A program made the position numbers and the translations under genes. Below, piece by piece: positions 15,085 through 61,157 of a stretch of 64,000 bases of DNA (its first letter is position 1; every line of letters begins with the position of its first letter). This DNA is from Eledone cirrhosa (Eukaryota): contig OZ024744.1 of the NCBI GenBank assembly GCA_964016885.1, forward strand, positions 67,642,001 to 67,706,000, read 5' to 3'. The notes under the pieces are model-generated. The model was not told the DNA's origin. It did no database searches and saw only the letters and a list, made by a program, of their open reading frames with translations.

Positions 15085-15617
15085 CATTATATATATAACA
15101 TTATATATATATAACACTATATATAACATTATATATATAACATTATATATATATAACATTATATATAACATTATATATATATAACATTGGAAAGTGGAAA
15201 GTGGGTTGTTAATAAGACAGCGGCCTGCCTGCTACCATAGCAGCAGTCATGGCCAATATTGCTTGACAAATAATTTGGAGATAATTATAAAGAATTAATA
15301 TCTAGTAACATATATACACATACAGATGCATATCAATGCTAGCAAATATATAGGTTTTGTCTTAGTAACTTTGTGGTTCAATGCATGGGGTTGCAGAACA
15401 ATAATATGAGAGACGTAAAATAAGAAAATTATAAAATCCACTGATTAACCTCGATGTCACGTGATTGATTCTTTTTGAATTTGCCACCGACGCAGAGGCA
15501 GTGATTTTCTCAATGGCTAGGAATTCAGTCCACGCTTTGCTATTTTCTATCCACTGAATTATTTTTTAATAAGTTTCCAGAGTCCACGCTTTGCCTGGAT
15601 ACTTAGATGAGAATAGT

Positions 15618-15697
15618 CTTCCCTGGCGACGGAATGATTCTCCATGTTTTCTTCGGAAAATATATTTATTCCATTCCAGAAACTAATTAGTTGGAAG
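15618..15697 (+). ncRNA. Type I hammerhead with extended stem II, variant core CUGGCGA
   Basis: CTTCC CTGGCGA C GGAATG...CATTCC A GAAA CTAATTAG TT GGAAG. Confidence 0.65.
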
Positions 15698-16139
15698 TGA
15701 TATTTTAGTAAGTAAGTTAATTTTATAATTTTCTTATTTTACGTCTCTCATATTATTGTTCTGCAACCCCATGCATTGAACCACAAAGTTACTAAGACAG
15801 AACCTATATATTTGCTAGCATTGATATGCATCTGTATGTATATATATGTTACTAGATATTAATTCTTTATAATTATCTCCAAATTATTTGTCGAGCAATA
15901 TTGGCCATGACTGCTGCTATGGTAGCAGGCAGGCCGCTGTCTTATTAGCAAACCACTTTCCACTGATTGACCTCGATGTCACGTGATTGATTCTTTTTGA
16001 ATTTGCCACCGACGCAGAGGCAGTGATTTTCTCAATGGCTAGGAATTCAGTCCACGCTTTGCTATTTTCTATCCACTGAATTATTTTTTAATAAGTTTCC
16101 AGAGTCCACGCTTTGCCTGGATACTTAGATGAGAATAGT

Positions 16140-16219
16140 CTTCCCTGGCGACGGAATGATTCTCCATGTTTTCTTCGGAAAATATATTTATTCCATTCCA
16201 GAAACTAATTAGTTGGAAG
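16140..16219 (+). ncRNA. Type I hammerhead, variant core CUGGCGA (unit 2)
   Basis: Same as 15618-15697, shifted by 522. Confidence 0.65.
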
Positions 16220-16661
16220 TGATATTTTAGTAAGTAAGTTAATTTTATAATTTTCTTATTTTACGTCTCTCATATTATTGTTCTGCAACCCCATGCATTG
16301 AACCACAAAGTTACTAAGACAGAACCTATATATTTGCTAGCATTGATATGCATCTGTATGTATATATATGTTACTAGATATTAATTCTTTATAATTATCT
16401 CCAAATTATTTGTCGAGCAATATTGGCCATGACTGCTGCTATGGTAGCAGGCAGGCCGCTGTCTTATTAGCAAACCACTTTCCACTGATTGACCTCGATG
16501 TCACGTGATTGATTCTTTTTGAATTTGCCACCGACGCAGAGGCAGTGATTTTCTCAATGGCTAGGAATTCAGTCCACGCTTTGCTATTTTCTATCCACTG
16601 AATTATTTTTTAATAAGTTTCCAGAGTCCACGCTTTGCCTGGATACTTAGATGAGAATAGT

Positions 16662-16741
16662 CTTCCCTGACGACGGAATGATTCTCCATGTTTTCTTCGG
16701 AAAATATATTTATTCCATTCCAGAAACTAATTAGTTGGAAG
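16662..16741 (+). ncRNA. Type I hammerhead, canonical core CUGACGA (unit 3)
   Basis: CTTCC CTGACGA C GGAATG...CATTCC A GAAA CTAATTAG TT GGAAG. Confidence 0.78.
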
Positions 16742-16924
16742 TGATATTTTAGTAAGTAAGTTAATTTTATATTTTTCTTATTTTACGTCTCTCATATTAT
16801 TGTTCTGCAACCCCATGCATTGAACCACAAAGTTACTAAGACAAAACCTATATATTTGCTAGCATTGATATGCATCTGTATGTATATATATGTTACTAGA
16901 TATTAATTCTTTATAATATATATA

Positions 16925-18365
16925 TATATATATATAATATATATAAGAGCAAAAGATGGTTAAAAGAGTTCCATGTATTTTATTATGCGCATTTCAAAAA
17001 CAAATATCATCATGCAATAATATTTGTGTTTTCATCAGATAAAACAGGAAGACATGATATGAAGGTTAAAACACACTGTGGATAGTGCAATTTTAAATCA
17101 ACATATGAAAAGTAGTTTTAGATTGATGTGTGATATTGGGGAAAAAATATTTTATTTCGTGGGGGGGGGGGGGGATGAAAAAGAGGAGGAGATGAGAGTA
17201 AAAAGTGGAGAGGGAGGAGTATAATGAGGAAGGATGAGATAGGAGGAGAGATGGGTGATAGAGAGAGAGAGATAGCTTTTATAACTGAGAAGGATATATT
17301 GTTTTACATAGAGAGGTTGAAAACCGTTGGAAGATAATGTATAAATTAAAAGAATTTGAAAAATAACGAAGAGAAAAATAATGTAAAGTTAAGGTTTGTA
17401 TATTGAAGGGTTTAATAATATGTGCGATGAAAAGAAAATGTTAATATGTATTAAGAATAATATTTAATGGTTTAATAATATGTGCGATGGAAAGAAAAAG
17501 TTAATATGTATTAAGAATAATATTTAAGGGTTTAATAATATGTGCGATGGAAAGAAAAAGTTGATATGTATTATTAAAAAGAACAACAGGTAATTTAAGT
17601 AAGGATATATTGTGGGATGAGCATGAATGAGTTAGATGAAAGGGAGAAAAGAATAATGAATTGAGGATGAATAATCTAACGTCAAAAAAATGTTTATGTT
17701 TACGAAGGATTTTTACAAGGTGATATAGAGTAAGAATGTATTGTATTATGTAATAATTGATTCTATGTTAGGCAACAGTGAGAAAAGGTACAGATTAGGG
17801 GTTAGACATTAAAAGAAGAAGAGAAGAAAGGGAAGTGATAAATAGGAGCGATATAGAATGAGTAACAAGTATTATAGAATGAGTAACAAGTATTATAGAA
17901 TGAGTAACAAGTATTATATAATGTATAATAAAAACTTTGAAATAAGGTAGAAAGATGGGTATATTTTTAAAGAAGTGTATATATATATGTGTGCCTTTGA
18001 GAAAAAGATTCTAAATTGATAATGCTTTGGATATTAGCTGTATACTTTGTGGAATGTTTTGTGGAATTTATGCAAGCAGATAGAAAACAAGTCAGTGCGT
18101 CTATTTATTATAGAATCTAAATTAGATATAATGGTAAATGTTTCATTTAGACAGAGATTGCAAATCTTGGATAGAGAACTGTTCAAGTATGAATACGCAG
18201 AATAAACATTCTTCCAAAAGATGCTATATTTAATATTTTTGTCTTTCAAGGACCATATGAGTTCTGAGAGAGCCGTGTTGGTTCTTTTAAGTTTGTATTT
18301 AAAAGACGAATGATGGTTATAAAGACGAGCTTTAAAGGAGGTGGAAGTGGAGCCAAAATAGGTGA
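16925..18365 (-). mobile_element. 5'-truncated Penelope-like element (GIY-YIG C-terminus, long AT-rich 3' region, HHR)
   Basis: ORF 18034-18402 followed by a same-strand HHR; internal 60-bp x3 (~17408-17575) and 22-bp x3 (~17853-17920) tandems. Confidence 0.75.
16978..17044 (-). ncRNA. Type I hammerhead in the 3' region of a PLE
   Basis: Minus strand: TTTTAT CTGATGA AAACACAAATATTAT-tgcatg-ATGATATTTGTTTTT GAAA TGCGCA TA ATAAAA. Confidence 0.85.
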
Positions 18366-20404: not shown

Positions 20405-20693
20405 TGTGCGTATGGGTTTACCGAACATTTATTATAATGTTTGGTTTGTTTGCAAACAAACAGCCCGAATTAAGCCGTACAGTGTTCGGCAACCATCGTT
20501 GCCCTTTTGTTCAAAACTGATAAAGGAACGATGAACCAGTTTCTAGCTTATTAGCTGTCATCAGCACTGCATACCTTCCTGTCAGTCGAATTAGTGTTTG
20601 AAAGTATATACTTTCCTTATGCATATTAACGGCTGAGCAGCCTAATTTGCATATCGAGTGAGTTAGTCGGCCGGGCGTACTGAAAACGATAAA

Positions 20694-20751
<58 letters not shown>

Positions 20752-20943
20752 CGATATATATATATATTCTATAGCTGTTGATCGTGGATAGATAGCTGTC
20801 GTTTATTTATCTATTATTTCTTCATAGGTGCCTTTTAATCTTATAGCCTGGTTTAATTGTTTTTTTGCGTGGTTGATTATGATGATTGGGAGAGGAAATA
20901 ATGTATATATTTTATCAAATTATTCTATGGCCATACTTTATGG

Positions 20944-21003
<60 letters not shown>

Positions 21004-21697
21004 TATATATATATAAATGGAAAAGAATGAAACGAAATTTCATTTCTCAATCTTAGTATGGCTGATACCTAAATATAAGTATATATACGTACATACATAT
21101 ATGTGTACAGACGTACAGTAGTATGTATATATATACATACATGCACACATATATATATGTACGTATGGGTTTACCGAATATTTATTATAATGTTCGGTTT
21201 GTTTGTAAACAAACAGCGCGAATTACGCCGTGCAGTGCTCGGCAATCATCGTCGCCCTTTTGTTCAACACTGACAAAGGTACTAGTTTCAAGCTTATTAG
21301 CTATCGTCAGCATCGTATACCTTTCTGTCAGATGATTGAACGTTTGAAAGTATATACTTTTCTTATGCATATTAACGGCTGAGCAGCCTAATTTGCATAT
21401 CGAGTGGGTTAATCGGCCGGACGTACCGAAAACGATAAATCGAAAAGAATGAAACGAAATTTCATTTCTCACTCTTCGTACGCTAGATACCTAAATATAC
21501 GTATGTATACGTACATACATATATGTGTACAGACGTACAGTAGTATGTATATATATATACATACATGCACACATATATATATGTACGTATGGGTTTACCG
21601 AACATTTATTATAATGTTCGGTTTGTTTGTAAACAAACAGCCCGAATTACGCCGTACAGTGCTCGGCAACCATCGTCGCCCCATTTGTTCAACACTG
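20400..21697 (-). mobile_element. Tandem array of ~430-bp HHR-containing monomers, interrupted at ~20700-21015
   Basis: GTATGGGTTTACCGAA recurs at ~20410, 21163 and 21587. HHR motifs at 20529-20569 and 21280-21315; the second lacks its 3' stem I strand. Confidence 0.8.
20529..20569 (-). ncRNA. Type I hammerhead (diverged)
   Basis: Minus strand: CAGTG CTGATGA C AGCT-aata-AGCT A GAAA CTGG TT CATCG. Confidence 0.65.
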
Positions 21698-21698
21698 A

Positions 21699-21723
21699 GA
21701 GTTGGACTGATAGTAAGACAGAT

Positions 21724-24503: not shown

Positions 24504-25749
24504 TGGGTAACGAGGGAGCCAAAGCTGTTAGCTGGGCCCGGGTGACGGAGGCGAAAAGTGGCAACAAGTCCACGATTCCGTCTTTGAAGGACCAAGACGG
24601 ATGTGTGAAACGTGAGCCGAAGCAGATGTGCGCGGCCTGGGGATGCCGTGGCTGACGATGTGCAAACACGCGCTCAGGCTGCGGCATCTCTCCGTATTCC
24701 TCACCGGACAACCGATTCGTGAGGCGAGCCTTTCCACGACTCGTCTCGCTGACCGAGCTGCAGTCCTGGGTCAAGCAAAGACCGAGGAAAATGGGCGACT
24801 GGCACACCGAATGTGCTCAGGCGCTCATAGCCCTCTGGCAGGGGGACTCGGCGATCAGTGGGGACTCCATTTCGTCATTCTATAGAAGGTTGATCAGCAG
24901 CAAGTGCGACGACGCGCTCGGAGAAACTCTAGGCGTAGAGGAAGACGAACTGGCCAGTCTGTTCGGTAGGACCTTCTGCCTGGGACCGATGGACAACTTC
25001 CAAAAGTCCCTGGCCTGGCAGTGCTACCGAGGAGCTCTACCAGTTCGAGACAAGCTCTACAGACATGGGCGTCCGGGCAGGGACCCTTCAAAAAAGATCT
25101 GTCCGAGATGCGTGCGAGACGAAGAAACCGTCACGCACGCTTCATACACTGCCCGGGCGTTACAGACCTGTGGGGCTATGTAGAATGACTATTATCGCGG
25201 GTGGGACCAATCAGGTTGATCACCGAGTCCATTGTCATGATCAAACCGCCACCCTCCTTCAAAAACGAAGGAGAGGCGGTTTTCCTTTGTGTGATAGCTA
25301 TGGCAAAAGAGGTTGTATGGTGGACGAGGTTGAAAGGGCTGAGGTCAGACACCTTTCTCTCCGGCCAATAACTGATTCTTTTTTTCAAATACCACTTTGG
25401 AAGAAGAATCAGGATGGAGAGAGAGGTGCTGTACCCCAGCAAGTTTTATGAAAGGTGGGTGAAAGTGGCGAGAATGGTCCGAGTGAATGCGCCTTCCCTC
25501 TATATCAGCCTGTAGGTTGAGGAAAAAGAGGAAGAGAGGAAACTCTTCGTACTCCTGGAGATGATGGTTGCACATTTTTCCGGGGGTATGTGTTACCCAT
25601 ATGTAATGTCTTCCCCTATTGGGGAAAATTGATTAATTTTTAAATTGCATTTGTGATAGTATTTTACACGTTTTTATTGTATGTAAATTTCCCCCTTTGT
25701 ATTTATCCCCTTCTTTTGTGCCCCTGTGGCTAATAAAGAAACATATCTA
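24504..25749 (+). mobile_element. 5'-truncated Tx1 copy with a ~1.36-kb internal deletion
   Basis: 24504-24635 matches ~30052-30185, then jumps to ~31542; full 3' UTR; preceded by (TCTA)n. Confidence 0.92.
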
Positions 25750-25768
25750 ACAAACTCATTCCCTCACT

Positions 25769-28937: not shown

Positions 28938-31900
28938 ACGAAGGAGGCGAAGGGTGAGTGATCTCTTTTCCTCTTTTAACTTTTCAGCACCAACATGGCC
29001 AATATAAGAGTTGGATGTGTGAACGTACGCGGCCTGGGGATGCCCTGGAAACAGGGCAAACTCTTAAACGACCTCAGGTCACACAGTTTGGATGTGGTAG
29101 CCATTTGCGAGTCCAGGATCCACGGCGAGCGACAGCTGGCCCCCATCTTCGATGACTTTGAGATCTACGCATCTCTCTGTCAACCGGGGGTTGGGGGCGG
29201 AGTTGCCGTTTTGCTGCGGAAACACCTGGGCCTCGTAACACAGACGGTACATCTGGACCCGGAGGGTCGACTGGTGGTCCTAGACGTTGACGGTAGTGAA
29301 GGTGGAGCCTTCAGGCTGGTGGCCGCATATGCCCCATCCGGGACACCGCGGCCAGACTTCTTCAAACGTCTAGAGACTTTTCTGGGAACGTCCCGCTCCT
29401 TGCTTTTAGTGGGGGACTGGAATGGAATCCTAGATGCACGTTGGGACTATGTGGGAGCATGTCCCGACAAAGGGGGGTGTAACAGCCTCAAACAGTTAAT
29501 CGACCGATTTGACCTGGCCGATAGATATCGACTAGATTTTCCGACTGCGCCAATGTGGACGTGGAGTAATCGTAGCGGAACATCTAGATCGTACCTAGAT
29601 AGGGTTCTAGTTAGAAATAAGGATAGGGACATGTTAAGCTGTCCACAAATGTTCATGGTTGCCTATTCAGATCACAAACTAGTGACCTGCATGGCCAACC
29701 TTGATAGAACCCATAGACAAGGACCCGGCTACTGGAAGCTGAACTTGTCGTTACCGACAAGCAAAGCCTACAGTAGACGGATTAGCACTTTAGTTAAACA
29801 GCACTTGACAGGGGCCATTGTCAACAACAGATGGTGGTACTCTCTCAAGAGGGCAGTTAGATTAGACTCGATAGTTTTTAGTAAAGAATTAGCGTTAGAT
29901 AGAAATAGAACCGAGAAGGAACTGGTAGATAAAGTAGAAGAGGCAATTAGAAGTGGCAACGTAGCCAGCGTGCTAGCAACGAGAACGGCCTTGGACCAGT
30001 TCTTCGACGCAAAGCACGAGGGCTGCGTTGTCAGAAGCAAAATACGTGCTCTGGGAAACGAGGGAGCCAAAGCTGTTAGCTGGGCCCGAGTGACGGAGGC
30101 AAAAAGTGGCAACAAGTCCACGATTCGGTCTTTAAAGGACCAAAACGGACGCGTGATACGTGAGCCGAAGCAGATGTGTGCGGCTTTTCAGCAACACTTT
30201 GCTCGGCTGTTCGGGGGGAGCGGCGCGCCGGGAGAGGCTATGGATTTCGGTCCATACCTCGACGGCCTACCGCGACTCTCGGACAGTGAGGCGAAGTTCT
30301 GCGAAAAGCCGATTTCAGCCACTGAGATAGGGGACGCGCTGAGCCAATGCGGCAAACGCAAATCTCCAGGTCTCGACGGTCTACCCTACGAATTTTACGT
30401 AGCAATGCCGGACTTATTCTCCGGTCTCCTGGAAGCGGTCTACTGCAACTGGCAACAGAACAGGAGAATTCCCAGTTCTGTAACCGGGGGCGTGGTCACA
30501 CTAATCAGGAAGGACGAGAATAAGGGGGATGACATAGGCAACTTCCGGCCCATAACTCTGCTAAACACAGAGTTACAGATTTTGGCCAAGGTGTTGGCAA
30601 AGAGGCTGGCGCTTGTCGTCGAGAACCTGGTGGGAGAAGCGCAGACATGCGCGATCCCGACCAGGTCCATACACGACAACCTCCACCTCATGCGATACAT
30701 CATAGAGAGGGTAGGGTGTAAACCCGGCTTCGGTGGGGCCCTGATCAACTTGGATCAGTCTAAGGCTTTCGATAGGGTTGACCATCGTTACCTGGATGCG
30801 GTGCTCGAGGCGGCAGGCTTCGGACCCGTGTTCAGGGGCTGGATTGCTGCAATGCACAACAGCAACATCTGCTCAAGGGTCAAGGTGAACGGTTACCTCT
30901 CGGAGCCGTTCCATATTACGCGATCCATTCGACAGGGATGCCCTCTCTCCTCCCTTCTGTACGTACTGACTCTCGAGCCACTACTGCGGAAGCTGGAGCT
31001 ATTGCAGGGCATCCCTCTGGAACCGGGACTGCGGAAAGCGGCGTCGGCCTATGCCGACGACGTGACAGTAATGGTGTCGAGCGCCTCGCAAATCGAGGAA
31101 GTCGGCACCTTACTAAAGGAATACGAAAGTCTCACAGGAGCGAAGCTGAACCGGGACAAGTCCATCGGTTTGCAACTCGGATCGTGGAGAGGCAGACCGA
31201 TGCCTTCCGATGGCGTCGTCGGACGCTGGACGGAAGGACCGGTAAAGCTGCTCGGGGTCTGGTTTGGTCCGGACCTCCAGGTGGAGAAGAACTGGAACGA
31301 AGTGACGGCCAAGGTGTTTGCACTCACCCAGAAGTGGGCCGAGTGCAAACTATCCTTGAAAGGTCGAGCGGAGGTGGCGAACACTTTTATAGCGTCCGCC
31401 ATCTACTACCGCTTGACCGTCGTGCCTTGTCCAGCCAAAACGCTCGCCAAAATGGAGCGCGCCCTCTTCCGATTCCTTTGGAAGAGGCGGGCTCCTTTGG
31501 TAAGAAGATCCATCTGCTGCCAACACCCTTCTAACGGAGGGCTGGGGATGCCGTGGTTGACGATGCGCAAACACGCGCTCAGGCTGCGGCATCTCTACGT
31601 ATTCCTCACCGGACAACCGGTGTGGGCCCCGTTCGTGAGGCGAGCCTTCCCACGACTCGTCTCGCTGACCGAGCTGCAGTCCTGGGTCAAGCAGAGACCG
31701 AGGAAAATGGGCGACTGGCACATCGTATGTGCTCAGGCGCTCACAGCCCTCTGGCAGGCGGACCCAGCGATCAGTGGAGACTCCACTTCGTCATTCTATA
31801 GAGGGTTGGTCCGCAGCAAGTGCGACGACGCGCTCGGTGAAACTCTAGGCGTGGAGGAAGATGAACTGGCCAGTCTGTTCGGTAGGACCTTCCGCCCGGG

Positions 31901-32668
31901 ACCGATGGACAACTTCCAAAAGTCCCTGGCCTGGCAGTGCTACCGAGGAGCTCTACCAGTTCGAGACAAGCTCTACAGACATGGGCTCCCGGGCAGGGAC
32001 CCTGCAAAAAAGATCTGTCCGAGGTGCGTGCGAGACGAAGAAACCGTCGCGCACGCATTCATACACTGCCCGGGCGTCACTGACCTGTGGGGCTATGTAG
32101 AACGACTATTGTCGCGGGTGAGACCAATCCAGTTGACCACCGAGTCCATTGTCATGATCAAACCGCCACCCTCCTTCAAAAACGAAGGAGAGGCGGTTTT
32201 CCTTTGTGTGATAGCTATGGCGAAAGAGGTTGTATGGTGGACAAGGTTGAAAGGGCTGAGGTCAGACACCTTTCTCTCCGGCCAACAACTGATTCTTTTT
32301 TTCAAATACCACTTTGGAAGAAGAATCAGGATGGAGAGAGAGGTGCTGTACCCCAGCAAGTTTTATGAAAGGTGGGTGAAAGTGGCGAGAATGACCCGAG
32401 TGAATGGGCCTTCTCTCTATATCAGCCTGTAGGTTGAGGAAAAGGAGGAGGAGAGGAAAGGAGTACAAGCTCTTCGTACTCCTGGAGATGAGGGTTGCAC
32501 ATTTTTTTCGGGGGTCTGTGTTACCCATATAAACTGTCTCCCTCTATTGGGGAAAATCGACTAACTTTTAAATTCCATCTGTGATAACATTTTACACGTT
32601 TTTATTGTATGTAAACTTCCCCCTTTGTATTTGTCCCCTTCTTTTGTGCCCCTGTGGCTAATAAAGAA
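28938..32668 (+). mobile_element. Young Tx1 LINE copy truncated in the last codons of ORF1; intact ORF2 and 3' UTR; (TCTA)n on both sides
   Basis: (TCTA)n at 28893-28937 and 32669-32746; AATAAA near 32660. Confidence 0.95.
28995..32432 (+). CDS. L1/Tx1-clade ORF2 polyprotein: APE endonuclease + reverse transcriptase + C-terminal zinc knuckle (1145 aa)
   Basis: NVRGL, GDWN, YLDR, SDH (APE); KSPGLDG, FRPITLLN, DQSKAFD, IRQGCPLS, AYADD (RT); CPRC..E...HAFIHC. Open throughout. Confidence 0.96.
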   Translation: MANIRVGCVNVRGLGMPWKQGKLLNDLRSHSLDVVAICESRIHGERQLAPIFDDFEIYASLCQPGVGGGVAVLLRKHLGLVTQTVHLDPEGRLVVLDVDGSEGGAFRLVAAYAPSGTPRPDFFKRLETFLGTSRSLLLVGDWNGILDARWDYVGACPDKGGCNSLKQLIDRFDLADRYRLDFPTAPMWTWSNRSGTSRSYLDRVLVRNKDRDMLSCPQMFMVAYSDHKLVTCMANLDRTHRQGPGYWKLNLSLPTSKAYSRRISTLVKQHLTGAIVNNRWWYSLKRAVRLDSIVFSKELALDRNRTEKELVDKVEEAIRSGNVASVLATRTALDQFFDAKHEGCVVRSKIRALGNEGAKAVSWARVTEAKSGNKSTIRSLKDQNGRVIREPKQMCAAFQQHFARLFGGSGAPGEAMDFGPYLDGLPRLSDSEAKFCEKPISATEIGDALSQCGKRKSPGLDGLPYEFYVAMPDLFSGLLEAVYCNWQQNRRIPSSVTGGVVTLIRKDENKGDDIGNFRPITLLNTELQILAKVLAKRLALVVENLVGEAQTCAIPTRSIHDNLHLMRYIIERVGCKPGFGGALINLDQSKAFDRVDHRYLDAVLEAAGFGPVFRGWIAAMHNSNICSRVKVNGYLSEPFHITRSIRQGCPLSSLLYVLTLEPLLRKLELLQGIPLEPGLRKAASAYADDVTVMVSSASQIEEVGTLLKEYESLTGAKLNRDKSIGLQLGSWRGRPMPSDGVVGRWTEGPVKLLGVWFGPDLQVEKNWNEVTAKVFALTQKWAECKLSLKGRAEVANTFIASAIYYRLTVVPCPAKTLAKMERALFRFLWKRRAPLVRRSICCQHPSNGGLGMPWLTMRKHALRLRHLYVFLTGQPVWAPFVRRAFPRLVSLTELQSWVKQRPRKMGDWHIVCAQALTALWQADPAISGDSTSSFYRGLVRSKCDDALGETLGVEEDELASLFGRTFRPGPMDNFQKSLAWQCYRGALPVRDKLYRHGLPGRDPAKKICPRCVRDEETVAHAFIHCPGVTDLWGYVERLLSRVRPIQLTTESIVMIKPPPSFKNEGEAVFLCVIAMAKEVVWWTRLKGLRSDTFLSGQQLILFFKYHFGRRIRMEREVLYPSKFYERWVKVARMTRVNGPSLYISL

Positions 32669-32683
32669 ATATATCTATCTATC

Positions 32684-32727
<44 letters not shown>

Positions 32728-45500: not shown

Positions 45501-47330
45501 TAGGCCACGCACATTCACGCTTCCAACTCGTAAACTAGCCATGTTGGTGGAGAACAGTTGGCGAAAAGGACGAAAAGGTGCACTTACCTTTTCGTTTTCT
45601 GGAGATCGGGTTGTTCAATCTCTATTTCAGTTCTGGTGGGGGTGTTGGGTGGGGTTGGGAAACATTTAAATAAGACGCGGTTAATTGCGAAAACTGTTTT
45701 TTCAATTTCTGATAGGTTTCTATCGAAACCCTTATCAGTTTTAGGTGTGGAGACTATTCTGCTTTGACAAAAGTTTTGCTCTCCATCTCCACCTTGGGGT
45801 TTTGGGAGATGACCTCCATCAAACTCTTGTTGTTTGTGTTGATGTATACGTATTGTTGTTTGTGTTTTTGTTGTGTTTTAGTTTGTTGTTCTTCCGGGAT
45901 TTTTCTTTTTATGGTGGGTGCTTGTGTTTGGGGTGGTGTTGGCGCTGGTTTTGCTGATAGGGGGATGTTTGACTTTGGTGTTGTTTGTGTTGTTTGTGTT
46001 GTTGTTTGTGTCTGTGGTTGTGTGTTTGTGTTGGTGTTGGTGATTGGAGTTTTGGGGGTTTTGTGGTGTCTCTTTTTTTTGTTTTTTAGATTTCCGAGGC
46101 TCTCCTTCTTCTTCACTTAAAGAAGGAGAAGCAGCCTCATCTGTCGGTGAATAATCATCGTCAGGAGTGTGGGGTAGGTGTATGTTGTGTTTGTGGTGGT
46201 GTTTCGGTGTGTGTGGTGGTTTTTCGGTGTGTGTGTTTGTGGTAGTGTTTGATGGAGTGGGATCGGGTGGGGCTGTGTTCTTCAGTGGTGTTGTCTGTGT
46301 TTTTTTCTGTTGTTGTTGGTTGAGTGGCTGTTTGTTTTGGTGTGTTTGCTCGTTTCGTCTGTTGTTTTACTTGTGGTGGTGGTTGTTTTGGTGTTGGTAA
46401 TAGTGTTTTTTTAATGATGTTGTGGTGTGTTTGTGAAGGACAGCAGGCCTTTAGGTGTGCTGTGCTACCACAGCGAAAGTAATGAAGTTTTCGACCCTCC
46501 ACCGTAATACTTATTTTGTTGTTGTCGTCGATGACGACTTTTTCGGGTATTTTGGAGATTCTCTCCGGCCTCATTTGCATCAGAATCTCCAAATCAGTAC
46601 CCGCCCACCTTTGTCTAATAGACTTTCGTATCGAAAGAATCATATCAGTCTCTGGCTTTACGAAGCCAGCCAAGATCCACCAGATGTTAATGTTTGGTGG
46701 TATATATATATATTTTTTTTTGTGTCCTTTTCTCCATGTACGTAGGGAAAAGGGTGAATGCTTTTGACACCATTGGTGTCACAGAATGTTTTTGGGCAAG
46801 TGCCTCGCTTTTAAACAGTACGGAAACACTTTCGTACTGTTTTCCTCGTTGGAGAAAGTCAATATTTGCTAGAGTCTCCTTGAAGGTGGCTTCTATATCT
46901 GCTTGACTAGCAAATATCAGCTTTCTCGTTGTGTTGGAGACCGTCCTAAAGGTCACCGTCCTTCGAACTGTCTCTTCTTTTATTTCGAGGGGTGAGTTAA
47001 TTCTAAACCCACCCTTGTCTTCGAAAGTTACAAATTTTCTCCCTTTCTGGAGCATATCTCTTGCATTGGAGATGTCAAGATTTATAAAATCATGTTTTTT
47101 GTTCACTGTTTCAGCGAAAGATATTTTTTTGTGTGGTGTTGCTGTTGTTGTTGTTGTTATCGTTGTTAGCCTCGGTGTTGGAAATCTCAATTTCTTGACG
47201 AGGTGAAACTTTATGTGTAGATGTATCTATGTTGTTGACGTTGTTGACGTTGTCCTTTTCATGTGTATGTATGTTAATAGGTTTAATTCCTGCTTTTTCC
47301 TGTGTGTTATTGTTCCTGTGTGTCCTGAAC
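42512..47330 (-). mobile_element. Near full-length Tx1 LINE lacking its 3' end, degenerate
   Basis: ORF1 pieces 46687-47190 and 46161-46673 (FRCGSTAHLKACC). ORF2 ATG at ~45542; APE-RT pieces 43837-45336, 43441-43821, 42932-43597. Ends inside the CPRC knuckle. Confidence 0.92.
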
Positions 47331-47399
47331 AGCCTGAATTTTATGCCGTACGGTGTTAAGGCAACCACGTCACCTTTTTGTTCAACACTGACACAGGAA

Positions 47400-47440
47400 C
47401 GATGTACTAGTTTCAATCTTATTAGCTATCGTCAGCATCG
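47400..47440 (-). ncRNA. Type I hammerhead
   Basis: Minus strand: CGATG CTGACGA T AGCT-aata-AGAT T GAAA CTAG TA CATCG. Confidence 0.7.
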
Positions 47441-48040
47441 TATACCTTCCTGCCAGATGGTTAAACGTCTGAAAGTATATACTTTGCTTATGCATATTAA
47501 CGGCTGAGCAGCCTAATTTGCATATCGAGTGAGGTCAGTCGGCCGGACACACCGAAAACGATAAATGGAATAGAATGAAACGAAATTTCATTTCTCACTC
47601 TTAGTACTTAAATGTAAGTATGCATGTATGTATACGCACATACATATATGTATACAGACGTACAGTAGTATGTATATATATACACACATGCACACATATA
47701 TATATGCACGTATCGGTTTACCGAACATTTATTATAATGCTCGGTTTGTTTGTTTGTAAACAAACAACGTAGTTCGGGCTATGTGCATGTGTGTATATAT
47801 ATACATACTACTGTACGTCTGTATACATATATGTATGTATGTATACATACTTCCTTACATTTAAGTAAGTGCCGTACTAAGAGTGAGAAATGAAATTTTG
47901 TTTCATTCTATTCCATTTATCGTTTTCGATGTGCCCGGCCGACTGAACTCACTCGATATGCAAATTAGGCTGCTCAGCCGTTAATATGCATAAGGAAAGT
48001 ATATACTTTCAGACGTTCAACCATCTGGCAGGAAGGTATA

Positions 48041-48081
48041 CGATGCTGACGATAGCTAATAAGCTTGAAACTAGTACATCG
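48041..48081 (+). ncRNA. Type I hammerhead
   Basis: CGATG CTGACGA T AGCT-aata-AGCT T GAAA CTAG TA CATCG; stem I extends as GGAA/TTCC past a GGTATA bulge. Confidence 0.8.
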
Positions 48082-48250
48082 TTCCTGTGTCAGTGTTGAA
48101 CAAAAAGGTGACGTGGTTGCCTAAACACTGTACGGCGTAATTCGCGCTGTTTGTGTACGTCTGTATACATATATGTATGTACGTATACATACATACTTAC
48201 ATTTAAGTAAATGCCGTACTAAGAGTGAGGAATGAAATTTCGTTTCATTC

Positions 48251-50614: not shown

Positions 50615-51899
50615 TGGCGAACACTTTTATAGCGTCCGCCATCTACTACCGCTTGACCGTCATGCCAAAACGCTCTCCAAAATGGAGCGCGCGCTCTTCC
50701 AATTCCTTTGGAAGAGGCGGGCTCCTTTGGTGAGAAGATCCATTGCTGCCAACACCCTTCTAACGGAGGGCTGGGGATGCCGTGGTTGACGATGCGCAAA
50801 CACGCGCTCAGGCTGCGGCATCTCTACGTATTCCTCACCGGACAACCGGTGTGGCCCCGTTCGTGAGGCGAGCCTTCCCACGACTCGTCTCGCTGACCGA
50901 GCTGCAGTCCTGGGTCAAGCAAAGACTGAGGAAAATGGGCGACTGGCACATCGAATGTGCTCAGGCGCTCACAGCCCTCAGGCAGGCGTACCCGGCGATC
51001 AGTGGAGACTCCACTTCGTCATTCTATAGAGGGTTGGTCCGCAGCAAGTGAGATGACGCGCTCGGTGAAACTCTAGGCGTAGAGGAAGATGAACTGGCCA
51101 GTCTGTTCGGTAGGACCTTCCTCCCGGGATCGATGGACAACTTCCAAAGTCCCTGGCCTGGCAGTGCTACCGAGGAGCTCCACCAGTTCGAGACAAGCTC
51201 TACAGACATGGGCGCCCGGGCAGGGACCCTGCAAAAAAGATCTGTCCGAGGTGCGTGCGAGACGAAGAAACCGTCGCGCACGCATTCATACACTGCCCGG
51301 GCGTCACTGATCTGTGGGGCTATGTGGAACGACTATTGTCGCGGGTGGGACCAATCCGGTTGACCACCGAGTCCATTGTCATGATCAAACCGCCACCCTC
51401 CTTCAAAAACGAAGGAGAGGCGGTTTTCCTTTGTGTGATAGCTATGGCGAAAGAGGTTGTATGGTGGACAAGGTTGAAAGGGCTGAGGTCAGACACCTTT
51501 CTCTCTGGCCAACAACTGATTCTTTTTTCAAATACCACTTTGGAAGAAGAATCAGGATGGAGAGAGAGGTGCTGTACCCCAGCAAGTTTTATGAAAGGTG
51601 GGTGAAAGTGGCGAGAACGACCCGAGTGAATGGGCCTTCTCTCTATATCAGCCTGTAGGTTGAGGAAAAGGAGGAGGAGAGGAAAGGAGTACAAACTCTT
51701 CGTACTCCTGGAGATGAGGGTTGCACATATTTTTTCGGGGGTATGTGTTACCCATATAAACTGTCTCCCCCTATTGGGGAAAATCGACTAATTTTTTAAA
51801 TTGCATTTGTGATAACATTTTACACGTTTTTATTGTATGTAAACTTCCCCCTTTGTATTTGTCCCCTTCCTTTATGCCCTTGTGGCTAATAAAGAAGCA

Positions 51900-51903
<4 letters not shown>
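50615..51903 (+). mobile_element. 5'-truncated Tx1 copy
   Basis: Near-identical to 31376-32668 with small indels. Confidence 0.93.
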
Positions 51904-51984
<81 letters not shown>

Positions 51985-52019
51985 GTCTATTTGTATACCT
52001 ACCTCTATCTGTCTGTCTT

Positions 52020-53291
52020 TGCCCAAGGTAAACGCTCGCCAAAATGGAGCGCGCACTCTTCCAATTCCTTTGGAAGAAGAGGGCTCCTATGGTGAGGAGA
52101 TCCATCTGCTGTTAACACGCTTCGAAAGGAAGGCTGGGGATGCCGTGGCTGATGATGCGCAAACACGCATTAAGGCTACGGCACCTCCAGGTATTCCTCA
52201 CCGGTCAACCGGTGTGGGCCCCGTTTGTGAGGCGAGCCTTTCCCAGACTCGTCTCGCTCACCGAGCTGCAATCCTGGGTCAAGCAAAGACCGAGAAAACT
52301 GGGAGCATGGCACACCGAGTGTGCCCAGGCGCTCACGGCTCTCTGGCAGGCGGACCCGGCTGTCAGTGGAGAATCCACCTCGTCATTCTATAGAGGGCTG
52401 GTGGTTAGCAGGTGCGACGACGCCCTCGGAGAAGCCCCAGACATGGAGGAAAACGAACTGGCCAACCTGTTCGGTAGGACATTCAGCCCGGGACCTATGG
52501 ATAACTTCCAGAGGTACCTGGCCTGGCAGTGCACCCGAGGGGCTCTGCCCGTTCGAGAAAGGCTCTACAGACACGGGCGCCCGGGTAGGGACCCCTCGAA
52601 AAAGATCTGTCCCAGATGCGTGTGCGACGAGGAAACCGTTGCACACGCATTGGTACACTGCTCGGGCATTGCCGATCTGTGGGGCTATGTCAAACGACTG
52701 CTGTCAAGGGTGGGACCGATCCGGTTGACCACCGAGTCTATTGTAACGATCAAGCCGCCTCTTCTCTTAAAAAACGAAGGAGAGGCGGTGTTTCTGTGCG
52801 TAATAGCCATGGCGAAAGAGGTTGTATGGTGGACGCGCCTGAAAGGGTTGAGGTCAGACACCTTTCTCTCCGGCTAACAACTGGTCCTTTTCTTCCGATA
52901 TCATTTCGGAAGAAGGATCAGGATGGAGAGGGAGGTGCTGCACCCCAGCCGTTTTTATGAAAGATGGGTGAAAGTGGCGAGAATGGCCCGTGTGAATGGG
53001 CCTTCACTCTACATCAGACTGTAGGTGAGAAAGATGAAAGATCAAGGGAGCACCCTCTCTCTGTGCTCCTGAGGAGAAGAGTTGCACACTTTTTCGAGTG
53101 TGTGTGCGACCCCCCAAGGCGCCTCCTCCCTATTGAGGATTTTGTTATTCAATTTATTTTTGTTATATTTTATATCTTATATTTTTATATTATGTTATTG
53201 CCTCCTCCTTATTGAGGACGCCTTTTTGTCTAAACTCCCCCCATTGTACTTGTCCCACTCTTTGACGCCCTGGTGGCAAATAAAAAGAAAC
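52020..53291 (+). mobile_element. 5'-truncated Tx1 copy of a diverged subfamily
   Basis: ORF 52140-52877 is homologous to the ORF2 C-terminus; different 3' UTR, ending in (TATC)n. Confidence 0.92.
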
Positions 53292-57849: not shown

Positions 57850-57852
<3 letters not shown>

Positions 57853-58985
57853 AAAGGTAAACAGCAATAACAACACAATCAGTACAGTATATGGAAGGAA
57901 CATATTAGGTTAACGCTTTAAATAGCAGGAAGAGGGTTTTAACGTTTCGGATGCTAGTCCTTCATCAGAAGAATGAATGAGAAATAAGATAGATTGAAGA
58001 GACGGGCAGGTTGGAATTGGAAAAAAATGTCTTTAGATAAAAATAACAGGTCCATTCATATTGACATCTCTTGGAAAACTGTTGATGCTGGTGTTTTGAG
58101 TATGATTTATTTTTTTTAGAAAAGTGGATGATGAAGCGCGTTTTGTAAACAGAGCTAAACCTGTGCGTGTGTGTATGCATGTGTGTGTGTGTTATTATAT
58201 GACTGTAAGAAGCCAAGAAGAAATGTGTGTGTATATGTAAGTAAGAGTGTGTGTGTGTTTATAAGTATGAAGCTATGAGCAAAAGTATGTTAATATAAGG
58301 GTGTGTATGTGTGTATTCAGAGCTGTAAAGGGAAAAGTGGAGTGTGCATATGTTGTCAGTCTGTATTAGTTGTAAGAGAATATGTTTCTCATCATAAGAG
58401 AGCGATAGGAATCTAGGGGTGAATGTACAAACGCGTGTGTGATAATGGACGGGGTATTAAAGAAATTGGGGAGGTGAGTTGAGTCCATGAGGGAAATAGG
58501 ACCCAAGGCAAGGAATCAGACTCGTGGGAGAGGACAAGAAGGAATTGCAAACCTGGAGGTCGTGGAGGTTGCGGATGCGCTTAAATGCAGTAATACGTGG
58601 GTTCAGAAGAAAAAAACGAGAAATGACGGGGTCCGAAGAGAGGATGCGGAACGAATGGAGGATATGTCGCCGGAGTGGTAAGGTGATGGGGTGGTAGGTG
58701 AGAGGGAAAGAAACACCGGTGTTTGGACAGCACTGGTGAGGTGAGAGGGCTGTGGTATGGTAAGTTTCACAGGCGCGGGTGAGAGAAACTTGGATCAGGG
58801 TTGGGGAATATCCACACTAGATGAAGCGGGAAGCCATGCGAAGGGAATGGGTTTCAAAAACGTCATCCTGGCTACAGAGCCGACGAAGACGGAGGAATTG
58901 GGAATAGGGTATGGAGTGTTTGGTGTGGGTTGGATGGGAGGGGGTGAAGTCGAGGTAATAGTGGGAGTCTGTTGGTTTACAAAAG
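57850..58985 (-). mobile_element. Internally deleted Penelope/Poseidon-like element
   Basis: RT thumb [36 protein letters not shown]; C-terminal LGSYFPHGLN near 58480-58510; 3' HHR. Confidence 0.85.
57936..57972 (-). ncRNA. Minimal PLE-type hammerhead
   Basis: Minus strand: TCTT CTGATGA A GGA-ctagca-TCC GAAA CG TT AAAA; downstream of a same-strand PLE ORF remnant. Confidence 0.65.
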
Positions 58986-59026
58986 ATATATATATATATA
59001 CATATATATATATATGAATATATATA

Positions 59027-59092
<66 letters not shown>

Positions 59093-59316
59093 CAATTAAG
59101 TTAAAGATGTACATCCATATATGTATACTGAAATACTAGTATGTATATGAATACACACACGTATACATATGTAGATGTACCAAGTTTTTTCACTGGTCAC
59201 TTTACTGTGAGTGGCCAGCTATTCTGTATGTAAACACACAGACAAACCGGTTTTTAGAGTCATACTGGTTTTTGAGGAAACACCTTTCCTCTATTCTCCA
59301 GAAAGCCAGACAAGGA

Positions 59317-59359
59317 ATATTGAACTAGTTTCGTTGTTGTTACAACTCATCAGCAATAT
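59317..59359 (-). ncRNA. Type I hammerhead
   Basis: Minus strand: ATATTG CTGATGA GTTG-taacaa-CAAC GAAA CTAG TT CAATAT. Confidence 0.88.
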
Positions 59360-59783
59360 TTACCTATCTTCCGGCCTCTCTAGAGAATCGTAAAAGCACA
59401 TATCGTTATATGCTTTTTCTATGAAAATTAGTAGTGGGCAGACTAATTTGCATAGAGTGTGAGTAAGTACCGGTTCAACGGAGACGATACAAACAAATAA
59501 CGAAACGAAATTAAACTTCGTTTCGTTTGTAACTCACTTTTGTATGACTGACGCTTAAACAATTAAGTTAAAGATGTACATCCATATATGTATACTGAAA
59601 TACTAGTATGTATATGAATACACACACGTATACATATGTAGATGTACCAAGTTTTTTCACTGGTCACTTTACTGTGAGTGGCCAGCTATTCTGTATGTAA
59701 ACACACAGACAAACCGGTTTTTAGAGTCATACTGGTTTTTGAGGAAACACCTTTCCTCTATTCTCCAGAAAGCCAGACAAGGA

Positions 59784-59826
59784 ATATTGAACTAGTTTCG
59801 TTGTTGTTACAACTCATCAGCAATAT
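59784..59826 (-). ncRNA. Type I hammerhead (unit 2)
   Basis: Identical to 59317-59359. Confidence 0.88.
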
Positions 59827-60149
59827 TTACCTATCTTCCGGCCTCTCTAGAGAATCGTAAAAGCACATATCGTTATATGCTTTTTCTATGAAAATTAGTA
59901 GTGGGCAGACTAATTTGCATAGAGTGTGAGTAAGTACCGGTTCAACGGAGATGATAAAAACAAATAACGAAACGAAATTAAACTTCGTTTCGTTTGTAAC
60001 TCACTTTTGTATGACTGACGCTTAAACAATTAAGTTAAAGATGTACATCCATATATGTATACGCTAAGGGAGGTAATTACCCGATGCCTGCTGGATGTTA
60101 CTTTTGAGCTACCCCAGCTATGGGGAAAAAATTTCTTTTCTAACATTAG

Positions 60150-60441
<292 letters not shown>

Positions 60442-60464
60442 ATATTAGGATTGGTGCTCTGAAA

Positions 60465-61157
60465 TAGTTTGCATTTGGGACATACAATGGAATTTCTGCC
60501 TACTCCTTTCCTAAACACTGAGCATGGCCATTTCCCAGAGGGGACCAGTTCCCTATTTTCCTTCCTTCATACTAGAACTTTAGTCTTAGACCAGTTAACT
60601 TAAAGGCCTTTTGATTCTAGGCCATGCTTCCATGTTTGGAATTTCTTCTGTAGTTTAGCCATAGATTCAGCTATGAGAGTTAGATCATCTGCGTATAGAA
60701 GTTCCCATGGGCAGCTGGTCTTAAACTACTGTTATAGCTTGAAGGGCAATAATAAATAGGGGGGGGGGGCTAAGGACAGAGCCTTGATGAACACCAACTT
60801 TTACGCTAAATTCTTTACTATATTCATTGTTAATTCTAACCTTGCTGACAGTTTCTTTATACATGGCTTGTACAGCTCTCACAAGCCATTCATCTACACC
60901 TAGTTTTCTAAGAGCCCACCATATAATAGGTGAGGACTCTGTCAAAGGCTTTCTCCAAGTCAACAAAAGCTAAGTAGAGGGGTTTACTTTTAGCTAGGTA
61001 CTTCTCCTGTAGTTGTCGTACAAGGAAAAGAGCGCCTGTGGTATTTTTACCTGACACAAACCCAAACTGCATTTCAACTAGATCAATACACTCTCTGATT
61101 AGTTGCGCTATAACTCTTTCTGTGACCTTCATGACCTGGTCAACTAACTTAATGCCC

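What the first reader, a model, noticed from the sequence alone, without database searches (positions are those of the whole stretch)
59090..60062. Near-identical 467-bp dimer with fully canonical hammerheads beside a Penelope remnant
Seen: two units differing at only a few bases, with perfect stems I and II and a palindromic CTAG stem III. They lie on the same strand as, and immediately upstream of, the PLE RT remnant at 57850-58985. A transcript would release an exact 467-nt monomer between the two cleavage sites. This is the best candidate for an active retrozyme.
Basis: partly seen in the sequence, partly recalled or inferred. Interest (0 to 1): 0.8.

Follow-up and report, generated by a model that had tools for sequence, protein, structure and literature searches.

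The report
Hammerhead RNA repeat spread by Penelope
This 467-base repeat with a hammerhead ribozyme motif is one of thousands of near-identical copies in the genome, and their shapes and mutations suggest a likely circular RNA that Penelope-type transposon enzymes copied round and round into new sites, likely carrying RNA edits back into the DNA.

Summary
The dimer is real: period 467, 2 mismatches in 506 bases, an intact type I hammerhead core in each unit (cut triplet GUU, not GUC). It is one copy of a young non-LTR retrozyme family with 5,048 exact hammerhead copies in this genome.

Family insertions sit in (TA)n and end at two fixed internal sites about 70 nt apart. Head-to-head insertions pair one end of each type (77 of 84). 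Autonomous Penelope-like elements (PLEs) here show the same signature.

Arrays reach 14 units; rare variants recur in every unit and often both arms. These whole-array variants are A>G-biased (19 A>G, 3 T>C); single-unit changes are not (33, 38). One monomer is hyper-edited with ADAR-type context, stopping at the predicted cut.

Best reading: a self-cleaved, probably circular monomer is reverse-transcribed repeatedly from both ends of a cut TA site by a PLE enzyme. Repeated jumping on a linear monomer is not excluded.

The adjacent PLE remnant is old and unrelated in sequence; it is probably a neighbour through the shared TA target. Nothing marks this locus as a source copy. Cleavage, expression and circularity were not tested.

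The parts
59090..60062 (-). Retrozyme insertion, single arm of 2.08 units; 3' end at unit position 39 (the family's 'short' start site), 5'-truncated
59596..60062 (-). Unit 1 (differs from the family majority only at position 111)
59129..59595 (-). Unit 2 (differs from the family majority only at position 106)
59783..59827 (-). Type I hammerhead 1: stem I 7 bp, CUGAUGA, stem II 5 bp, GAAA, palindromic ACUAGU stem III, GUU cut predicted between 59790 and 59789
59316..59360 (-). Type I hammerhead 2, identical; cut predicted between 59323 and 59322
59323..59789 (-). Predicted 467-nt monomer, putative circle (not shown to exist as RNA)
   Evidence: z -9.9; circular fold keeps stems I and II
59964..59995 (-). 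13-bp hairpin lying between the family's two start sites (35-40 and 107-109); second copy at 59497-59528. Candidate RT-binding signal (inferred)
59910..59921 (-). 12-nt block with an octamer motif, identical in a sister family, about 90 nt upstream of the hammerhead; second copy at 59443-59454. Possible internal promoter element (untested)
58986..59088 (.). (TA)n target tract
57850..58985 (-). Old, 5'-truncated PLE remnant (coding match 58550-58984, no GIY-YIG part, own hammerhead-like motif at 57968); neighbour, not partner
60063..60328 (-). Older unrelated repeat with a long hairpin forming the 5' flank (83-93% identical to relatives)

Best explanation
The dimer is a recent copy of a non-coding hammerhead repeat family with thousands of copies in (TA)n tracts, likely spread when a Penelope-type reverse transcriptase-endonuclease copied a self-cleaved, probably circular 467-nt RNA repeatedly. 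Steps: (1) A tandem copy is transcribed (inferred; promoter unknown). (2) Hammerheads cut after position 273 and release monomers (inferred from motif, conservation and a few footprints). (3) The monomer is closed into a circle by a host ligase (by analogy with PMC7229834; untested here). (4) A PLE enzyme cuts both strands of a (TA)n tract and primes cDNA from both DNA ends, one at RNA position about 109 and one at 35-40 (two fixed ends and their pairing shown; enzyme inferred). (5) Each RT runs through the monomer repeatedly, giving arms of up to 14 identical units (arrays shown; rolling inferred). (6) The two cDNA ends join head to head (architecture shown). (7) A-to-I edits on the RNA are fixed as A>G in all units (bias shown; ADAR inferred, strongly for one locus). 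The window copy is a single short-end arm without a partner arm. Confidence that it is a PLE-mobilised retrozyme is about 0.95; the 0.65 given is for the circular-template version.
For: Copy number: 5,048 exact 41-nt hammerheads, control 0. Forward-strand junctions with (TA)n: 1,168 long-end and 179 short-end; the short count is a lower bound because the pattern misses older subfamilies. Ends: 212 of 220 arm ends in 129 loci lie at 34-41 or 102-112. One end per locus is fixed by design in the 100 loci picked by junction; the 31 loci picked by whole-unit match show the same two sites. Pairing: 77 of 84 head-to-head pairs have one long and one short end; 1 short-short, 1 long-long, 5 with a broken arm. 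PLE signature: four RT plus GIY-YIG PLE families in this genome have two ends 35-65 nt apart, and inverted copies pair one of each (family E 6 of 6 pairs read, one long end intermediate). This matches the published PLE tail and inverted copy (PMC8557442 passages) and the two internal start sites with cleavage and extension of both strands (PMC11167929). One locus (L076/L211) joins a retrozyme long arm to a PLE-E short arm with no TA between. One template copied repeatedly: 19 of 29 arrays with 3 or more full units have no recurrent sub-haplotype; of 41 locus-private whole-array variants, 38 repeat within an arm and 23 are in both arms; arm lengths correlate (rho 0.38, n 57, p 0.004); 47 of those 57 pairs have an arm that crosses the cut site. 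RNA stage: whole-array private variants are 19 A>G against 3 T>C (p 4e-4), single-unit changes 33 against 38 (Fisher p 0.001); clusters of 4-11 A>G repeat unit after unit in L051, L101 and L102, and no T>C cluster was found; L031 has 43 of 104 A changed, 42 of 70 after U/A against 1 of 34 after C/G (p 3e-9), ending at 266 with 0 of 223 downstream; ADAR-family domains are in the genome. Ribozyme under selection: 0 of 13 core positions carry a heritable change against 127 of 467 overall (p 0.024); 6 of 14 pairs change on both sides, 0 of 500 shuffles, though rows are related.
Against: No RNA data were seen, so transcription, cleavage and circularity are unshown. L031 cannot come from one monomer circle: an edited and an unedited monomer are joined at about the cut site. 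L147 has two 274-to-40 pieces in a row, which points to linear cleaved templates and jumping. 10 of 29 long arrays are mixed; L059 (period 4) and L045 (period 3, one arm only) have no hammerhead defect to explain a multimer circle. The 19 private A>G changes show no ADAR-type 5' neighbour bias (T8, G4, A4, C3). 5' ends at the cut site are only weakly enriched: 8 of 221, p 0.02, and other 7-nt windows hold as many. Junction microhomology is modest: 7 of 36 junctions overlap by 3 nt or more (6.5% by chance), and 17 of 36 have extra or mismatched bases. No PLE with sequence similarity to the unit was found among 47 PLE-bearing loci, so the partner is not identified; the two direct PLE junctions involve different families (L076, L049). 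GUU and the 2-bp stem III may make cleavage slow, and 8 of 9 predicted Xenopus dimers did not cleave in vitro (10.64898/2026.07.22.740005).
Confidence: 0.65

Rival explanations
1. Same retrozyme and PLE enzyme, but the template is linear: the RT jumps from the cleaved 5' end back to the 3' end of the same or another monomer, or copies partly cleaved multimer transcripts.
For: L031 joins an edited and an unedited monomer at about the cut site. L147 restarts at 40 after reaching 274. 8 of 221 5' ends lie at 270-276. In the Anolis PLE, uncleaved linear RNA is the dominant substrate in vitro (PMC11167929).
Against: Arms of up to 14 identical units share private variants with the opposite arm, which would need many error-free jumps onto the same molecule. 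Multimer transcripts would be edited unit by unit, yet A>G clusters repeat in every unit. Circles are the abundant form in coral, mussel and axolotl retrozymes (PMC7229834).
Confidence: 0.25
2. Short PLE-made insertions were later expanded in the DNA by unequal crossing-over, as an ordinary satellite.
For: Period-3 and period-4 patterns without a ribozyme defect (L045, L059). This route is raised in the discussion of 10.64898/2026.07.22.740005. It probably acts on some arrays.
Against: Both inverted arms are often long and their lengths correlate. Long arms are commoner among copies closest to the youngest form (11 of 69 with 4 or more units, against 3 of 92). An arm longer than one pass already needs a template that crosses the cut site.
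Confidence: 0.07
3. The dimer is the tandem pseudo-LTR of the adjacent PLE remnant.
For: Same strand and 106 bp from PLE coding sequence; PLE pLTRs carry hammerheads (PMC4209133 passages).
Against: No shared sequence; a TA tract lies between them; the remnant has its own different hammerhead and is far older. Only 9 of 127 family loci have PLE-like coding within 1 kb of the flank held, 7 of them across a TA tract and from several families.
Confidence: 0.02
4. Dimers and inverted arrays are assembly or fold-back artefacts.
For: No reads were seen; 2 of 76 two-arm loci have flanks that resemble each other in inverted orientation.
Against: 74 of 76 have unrelated flanks; the two arms end at different fixed sites; the window's units differ at two bases; thousands of dispersed copies exist.
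Confidence: 0.01

Closest known systems
Metazoan non-LTR retrozymes (coral, mussel, axolotl; PMC7229834, PMC7761336; vertebrate survey 10.64898/2026.07.22.740005)
   Same: Non-coding tandem unit with a type I hammerhead, short palindromic stem III, GC below 50% (35%), thousands of copies, strongly self-paired monomer, PLEs in the same genome.
   Different: The unit is slightly longer than the 170-400 nt RNAs first described but within the 51-972 bp of the preprint. In the sections I read, these papers do not describe fixed RT start sites, paired inverted arms, (TA)n targeting or inherited A>G clusters. PMC7761336 says the repeats show no motif pointing to their partner.
Penelope-like elements with C-terminal GIY-YIG (PMC8557442; Anolis PAc, PMC11167929)
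   Same: Two internal RT start sites with a tail at one end only, inverted 5'-truncated partner copy, AT-rich or microsatellite target, hammerhead upstream of the start sites.
   Different: No ORF; tail about 70-74 nt rather than 30-40; many whole-unit repeats; no sequence match to any PLE pLTR examined.
Newt satellite 2 and schistosome hammerhead satellites (known here only from passages in PMC7229834 and PMC2220036)
   Same: Tandem hammerhead repeats; newt satellite 2 is cited as using an internal snRNA-type promoter, and this unit has a conserved octamer-containing block upstream of the ribozyme.
   Different: Promoter function is untested here; the original paper (PMC308520) was not held.
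L1 twin priming (recalled; appears only in the search listing)
   Same: Two primers at one target give an inverted insertion.
   Different: Here both arms are near-complete head-to-head copies starting at two fixed internal sites, not an oligo(dT) start plus a random internal one.

Membership tests
non-LTR retrozyme | [quoted passage not shown] | tested here: met
non-LTR retrozyme | No protein-coding capacity; no LTR flanking a distinct interior | tested here: met
   longest stop-free frame within the units is 62 aa; whole-unit tandem arrays; PBS and PPT were not searched for separately
non-LTR retrozyme | GC below 50% and highly self-paired monomer | tested here: met
   165 of 467 G+C; z -9.9
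non-LTR retrozyme | Dispersed, recently mobile copies made through an RNA stage | tested here: met
non-LTR retrozyme | Self-cleavage of the RNA | not testable with these tools
   indirect only: core conservation and covariation, edit boundary at the cut, weak excess of 5' ends
non-LTR retrozyme | Expressed as linear and circular monomer RNA | not tested
   no sequencing runs were seen here
non-LTR retrozyme | Target site duplication longer than 4 bp, when present | tested here: inconclusive
   insertions lie inside (TA)n, where a duplication cannot be read
PLE-mobilised element | Tail at one end only and inverted 5'-truncated partner copy | tested here: met
   77 of 84 pairs; same in this genome's PLEs. 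The window copy itself has only the short-end arm
autonomous PLE | RT plus GIY-YIG ORF | tested here: not met
pLTR of a known or local PLE | Sequence similarity to a PLE terminal repeat | tested here: not met
   none to the neighbour or in 47 PLE-bearing loci; most PLE families of the genome were not sampled and Repbase was not available
plant LTR retrozyme | Type III hammerhead in LTRs | tested here: not met
   type I topology

The most novel reading that the evidence does not exclude
One circular ribozyme RNA is rolled by two Penelope RT active sites at once, primed from both ends of a cut (TA)n site 70 nt apart on the circle. A-to-I editing of that circle is the largest single source of inherited change in the family, so the genome keeps a readable record of RNA editing written back into germline DNA.
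Probability: 0.4. Interest if true: 0.78.

Novelty: new member of a known kind. Interest (0 to 1): 0.6.

Why it matters
How animal retrozymes get back into DNA, and by which enzyme, is a proposed model in the papers I read (PMC7229834, PMC7761336, the 2026 preprint); the evidence there is co-occurrence and pLTR similarity. This family carries the insertion footprint of PLEs and a natural lineage marker (A>G clusters repeated unit after unit) that argues for repeated copying of one monomer. It names start sites, a target sequence and candidate enzymes, so the rolling-circle model and the origin of the PLE tail and inverted arm become directly testable with a 467-nt RNA. The single locus in the window is ordinary within its family; the value lies in the family.

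Tried and rejected
Rfam at gathering thresholds: 0 matches in the window. Pfam on the remnant's three frames: nothing informative; a longer relative gave sub-threshold RVT_1 and GIY-YIG, and homologues of PLE family E carry PF00078 and PF01541. Link to the adjacent remnant: rejected. Partner search: 15 long-ORF GIY-YIG loci fetched from 150 scored of 10,597 candidates; no sequence match to the unit. A U-rich likeness between the short end of PLE family A and the retrozyme's long end was judged too weak to use. Pile-up of 5' ends at the cut site: weak. 'Dead hammerhead in every second unit gives dimer circles': fits L088 (A9 changed) and roughly L032 (G10.1 changed) but not L059 or L045; kept as a lead. 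ADAR neighbour bias in scattered private A>G: not seen. A Pol III terminator at the T5 run (103-107) next to the long end: noted, not testable. Earlier findings of this scan: nothing. Literature searches listed no paper on cephalopod retrozymes, paired inverted retrozyme arms or inherited editing in retrozymes; the library lacks most subscription journals and I read no supplements, which may hold such cases. Rows dropped before counts: L093 (duplicate of L092) in all family counts except the cluster scan and the motif tally; the window locus; L031 and L149 in the spectra.

Full report
Observation. The repeat at 59090-60062 is 2.08 units of 467 bp with two mismatches in 506 compared bases. On the minus strand each unit holds a complete type I hammerhead: 7-bp stem I, CUGAUGA, 5-bp stem II, GAAA and a 2-bp stem III inside the palindrome ACUAGU. 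With position 1 at window 60062, the cut is predicted after position 273. The triplet is GUU; among 424 motif instances in the loci held, 351 were GUU, 63 GUC and 8 GUA, with GUC in older subfamilies. The predicted monomer folds far better than shuffles (z -9.9). Rfam gave no match at gathering thresholds. The longest stop-free frame within the units is 62 aa.

The family. The window lies in a 3.0-Gb genome. Named relatives of one of its PLE proteins are from an argonaut, a mussel and an oyster, so the host is probably a mollusc, perhaps an octopod (inference). A search with the unit gave 218 matches from 40 of 145 candidate regions; the 139 near-full-length matches among the 150 listed are 98-100% identical. 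The 41-nt hammerhead has 5,048 exact copies and the reversed control none. I examined 131 loci: 31 picked by whole-unit match, 60 by a long-end junction and 40 by a short-end junction, taken in order along contig 1. This is a sample of a family with over a thousand insertions on the forward strand alone.

Insertion anatomy. Arms end in (TA)n at two sites: 100 of 220 ends at positions 34-41, 112 at 102-112 and 8 elsewhere. In the junction-picked sets one end per locus is fixed by design, but the partner ends and the first set are not, and they show the same sites. Of 84 head-to-head pairs, 77 have one long and one short end, 1 is short-short, 1 long-long and 5 have a broken arm. Ten of 40 apparently single arms carry a tiny partner arm. 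Flanks are unrelated in 74 of 76 two-arm loci, against fold-back artefacts. A 13-bp hairpin lies between the two sites. A sister family about 70% alike, also present in the window, ends at the homologous two positions. The window copy is a lone short-end arm whose 5' end abuts an older repeat; at least 4 of the 40 short-end loci (L122, L123, L129, L140) look similar.

This is the PLE signature. PMC8557442 (passages) describes an inverted 5'-truncated copy and a 30-40 bp tail often at one end only. PMC11167929 (main text) shows that a purified PLE protein cuts and extends both strands of AT-rich DNA and starts at two internal RNA sites that bound the tail. In this genome, four RT plus GIY-YIG families have two ends 35-65 nt apart before (TA)n, with one of each in inverted copies. 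For family E, 6 of 6 inverted pairs among 30 loci follow the rule, read by eye, one with an intermediate long end. Three of these families have copies 96-99% alike over the ORF stretch compared, plus two at 93-94%. Locus L076/L211 joins a retrozyme long arm, 39 nt of retrozyme and a family-E arm with a short end, with no TA between. This suggests co-insertion but is one case and could be a later deletion; L049 is a second junction with another family.

The neighbour. The remnant at 57850-58985 matches residues 396-539 of a 625-aa relative whose GIY-YIG lies at 591-622. Its best relatives are 77% identical in protein and 81-88% in DNA over the coding part. It shares no sequence with the unit. 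PLE-like coding lies within 1 kb of 9 of 127 family loci, 7 across a TA tract (flanks held were uneven). Nesting in a shared target explains the adjacency.

What was copied. Of 29 arrays with three or more full units in an arm, 19 have no recurrent sub-haplotype; some reach 13-14 units. Of 41 variants private to one locus and shared by all its covering units, 38 repeat within an arm and 23 occur in both arms. Arm lengths correlate in the sets not chosen by length (rho 0.38, n 57). These private whole-array variants are 19 A>G against 3 T>C on the RNA strand, while single-unit changes are 33 against 38. L102 has 11 A>G among 14 own changes in both full units, L101 five A>G in three units across both arms, and L051 four in five pieces; no T>C cluster was found. 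A strand-biased change that is then repeated in every unit is most simply an edit on one monomer that was copied several times (inference). L031 has 43 of 104 A changed to G, almost only after U or A (p 3e-9), ending at position 266 with 0 of 223 changed downstream. That context matches ADAR as I recall it, and ADAR-family domains are in the genome. The hammerhead core carries no heritable change (0 of 13 against 127 of 467), and stems I and II covary (6 of 14 pairs, 0 of 500 shuffles; rows are related, so this is not a probability).

Results against the circle. L031 joins two monomers of different history near the cut, and L147 restarts at 40 after reaching 274, so linear cleaved RNA and template jumps also occur. 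Ten of 29 long arrays are mixed. L088 and L032 alternate with a damaged hammerhead in about every second unit, as a dimer template would, but L059 and L045 are periodic without such damage. The scattered private A>G changes lack the neighbour bias. The excess of 5' ends at the cut is weak (8 of 221). Junction overlaps of 3 nt or more occur in 7 of 36, and 17 of 36 have extra or mismatched bases. No RNA data were seen.

Mechanism. I commit to transcription, hammerhead cleavage, circularisation, and repeated reverse transcription by a PLE enzyme primed from both ends of a cut (TA)n site, with the two cDNAs joined head to head (0.65). Jumping on linear monomers is the main rival (0.25), then DNA-level expansion (0.07). 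That it is a PLE-mobilised retrozyme at all is about 0.95.

Comparison and novelty. It meets the sequence criteria of metazoan non-LTR retrozymes (PMC7229834, results and discussion read; PMC7761336 passages); expression as circles is untested. The 2026 preprint (introduction to discussion read) links retrozymes to PLEs by co-occurrence and pLTR similarity and leaves the mechanism open. PMC7229834 mentions RNA editing only as a possible source of heterogeneity. An Octopus vulgaris repeat annotation has no occurrence of 'ribozyme' or 'retrozyme' in its main text (PMC13282606). PMC4209133 (passages) describes short palindromic stem III and dimeric cleavage. Searches listed nothing on paired arms or inherited editing in retrozymes; supplements were not read and subscription papers are mostly absent. 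Verdict: a new member of a known kind whose genomic footprints bear on an open mechanism. Interest 0.6.

Noticed in passing
window 20456-21700 (-), 47325-47720 (-) and 47800-48250 (+); L199:8579-9901: Sister retrozyme family (about 480-510 bp units, GUA triplet, U-U at the base of stem II) with compensatory stems, the same octamer block and the homologous two end sites; the 47-48 kb copy is a head-to-head pair.
   Followed up: partly
window 15193-16930: 522-bp unit in three near-identical tandem copies plus an inverted 268-bp arm, ending in (TA)n, with a hammerhead-like core and long stem II (intact CTGACGA only in the third copy); probably another PLE-mobilised repeat.
   Followed up: no
window 2535, 18997, 19235, 39881, 62906 (all -); 17038 (-), 18530 and 63618 (+): Further hammerhead-like motifs of other repeat families.
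   Followed up: no
window 60063-60328; also 1946-2098: Repeat with a roughly 108-bp hairpin whose relatives end in (TA)n at a fixed point; 1,259 candidate regions in the genome.
   Followed up: partly
L123:3047-5062: Chimera of the two retrozyme families: a sister-family long arm head to head with a sister-family piece that runs into 2.7 units of this family ending at the short site; suggests shared machinery and template switching.
   Followed up: partly
L088:1411-3624 and L032:1493-8176: Arrays alternating an intact and a damaged hammerhead (A9 or G10.1 changed), as expected from a dimer template.
   Followed up: partly
L188, L189, L194, L197, L198 and L195 (3' non-coding ends): Young PLE families A and E have a hammerhead-like motif with UUGAAAA in place of CUGAUGA before a hairpin, GAAA or GCAA and a palindromic ACCGGU; a possible core variant, read by eye.
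   Followed up: no
L031:1976-2575: About 600 bp of other sequence, with a duplicated poly-G-led segment, lies between the hyper-edited arm and its partner arm.
   Followed up: no
window 60464-61150 (-); 446-1906, 24805-25768, 31721-32696, 50949-53112: Fragments that look like LINE reverse-transcriptase sequence and a dispersed repeat with several copies; not examined.
   Followed up: no
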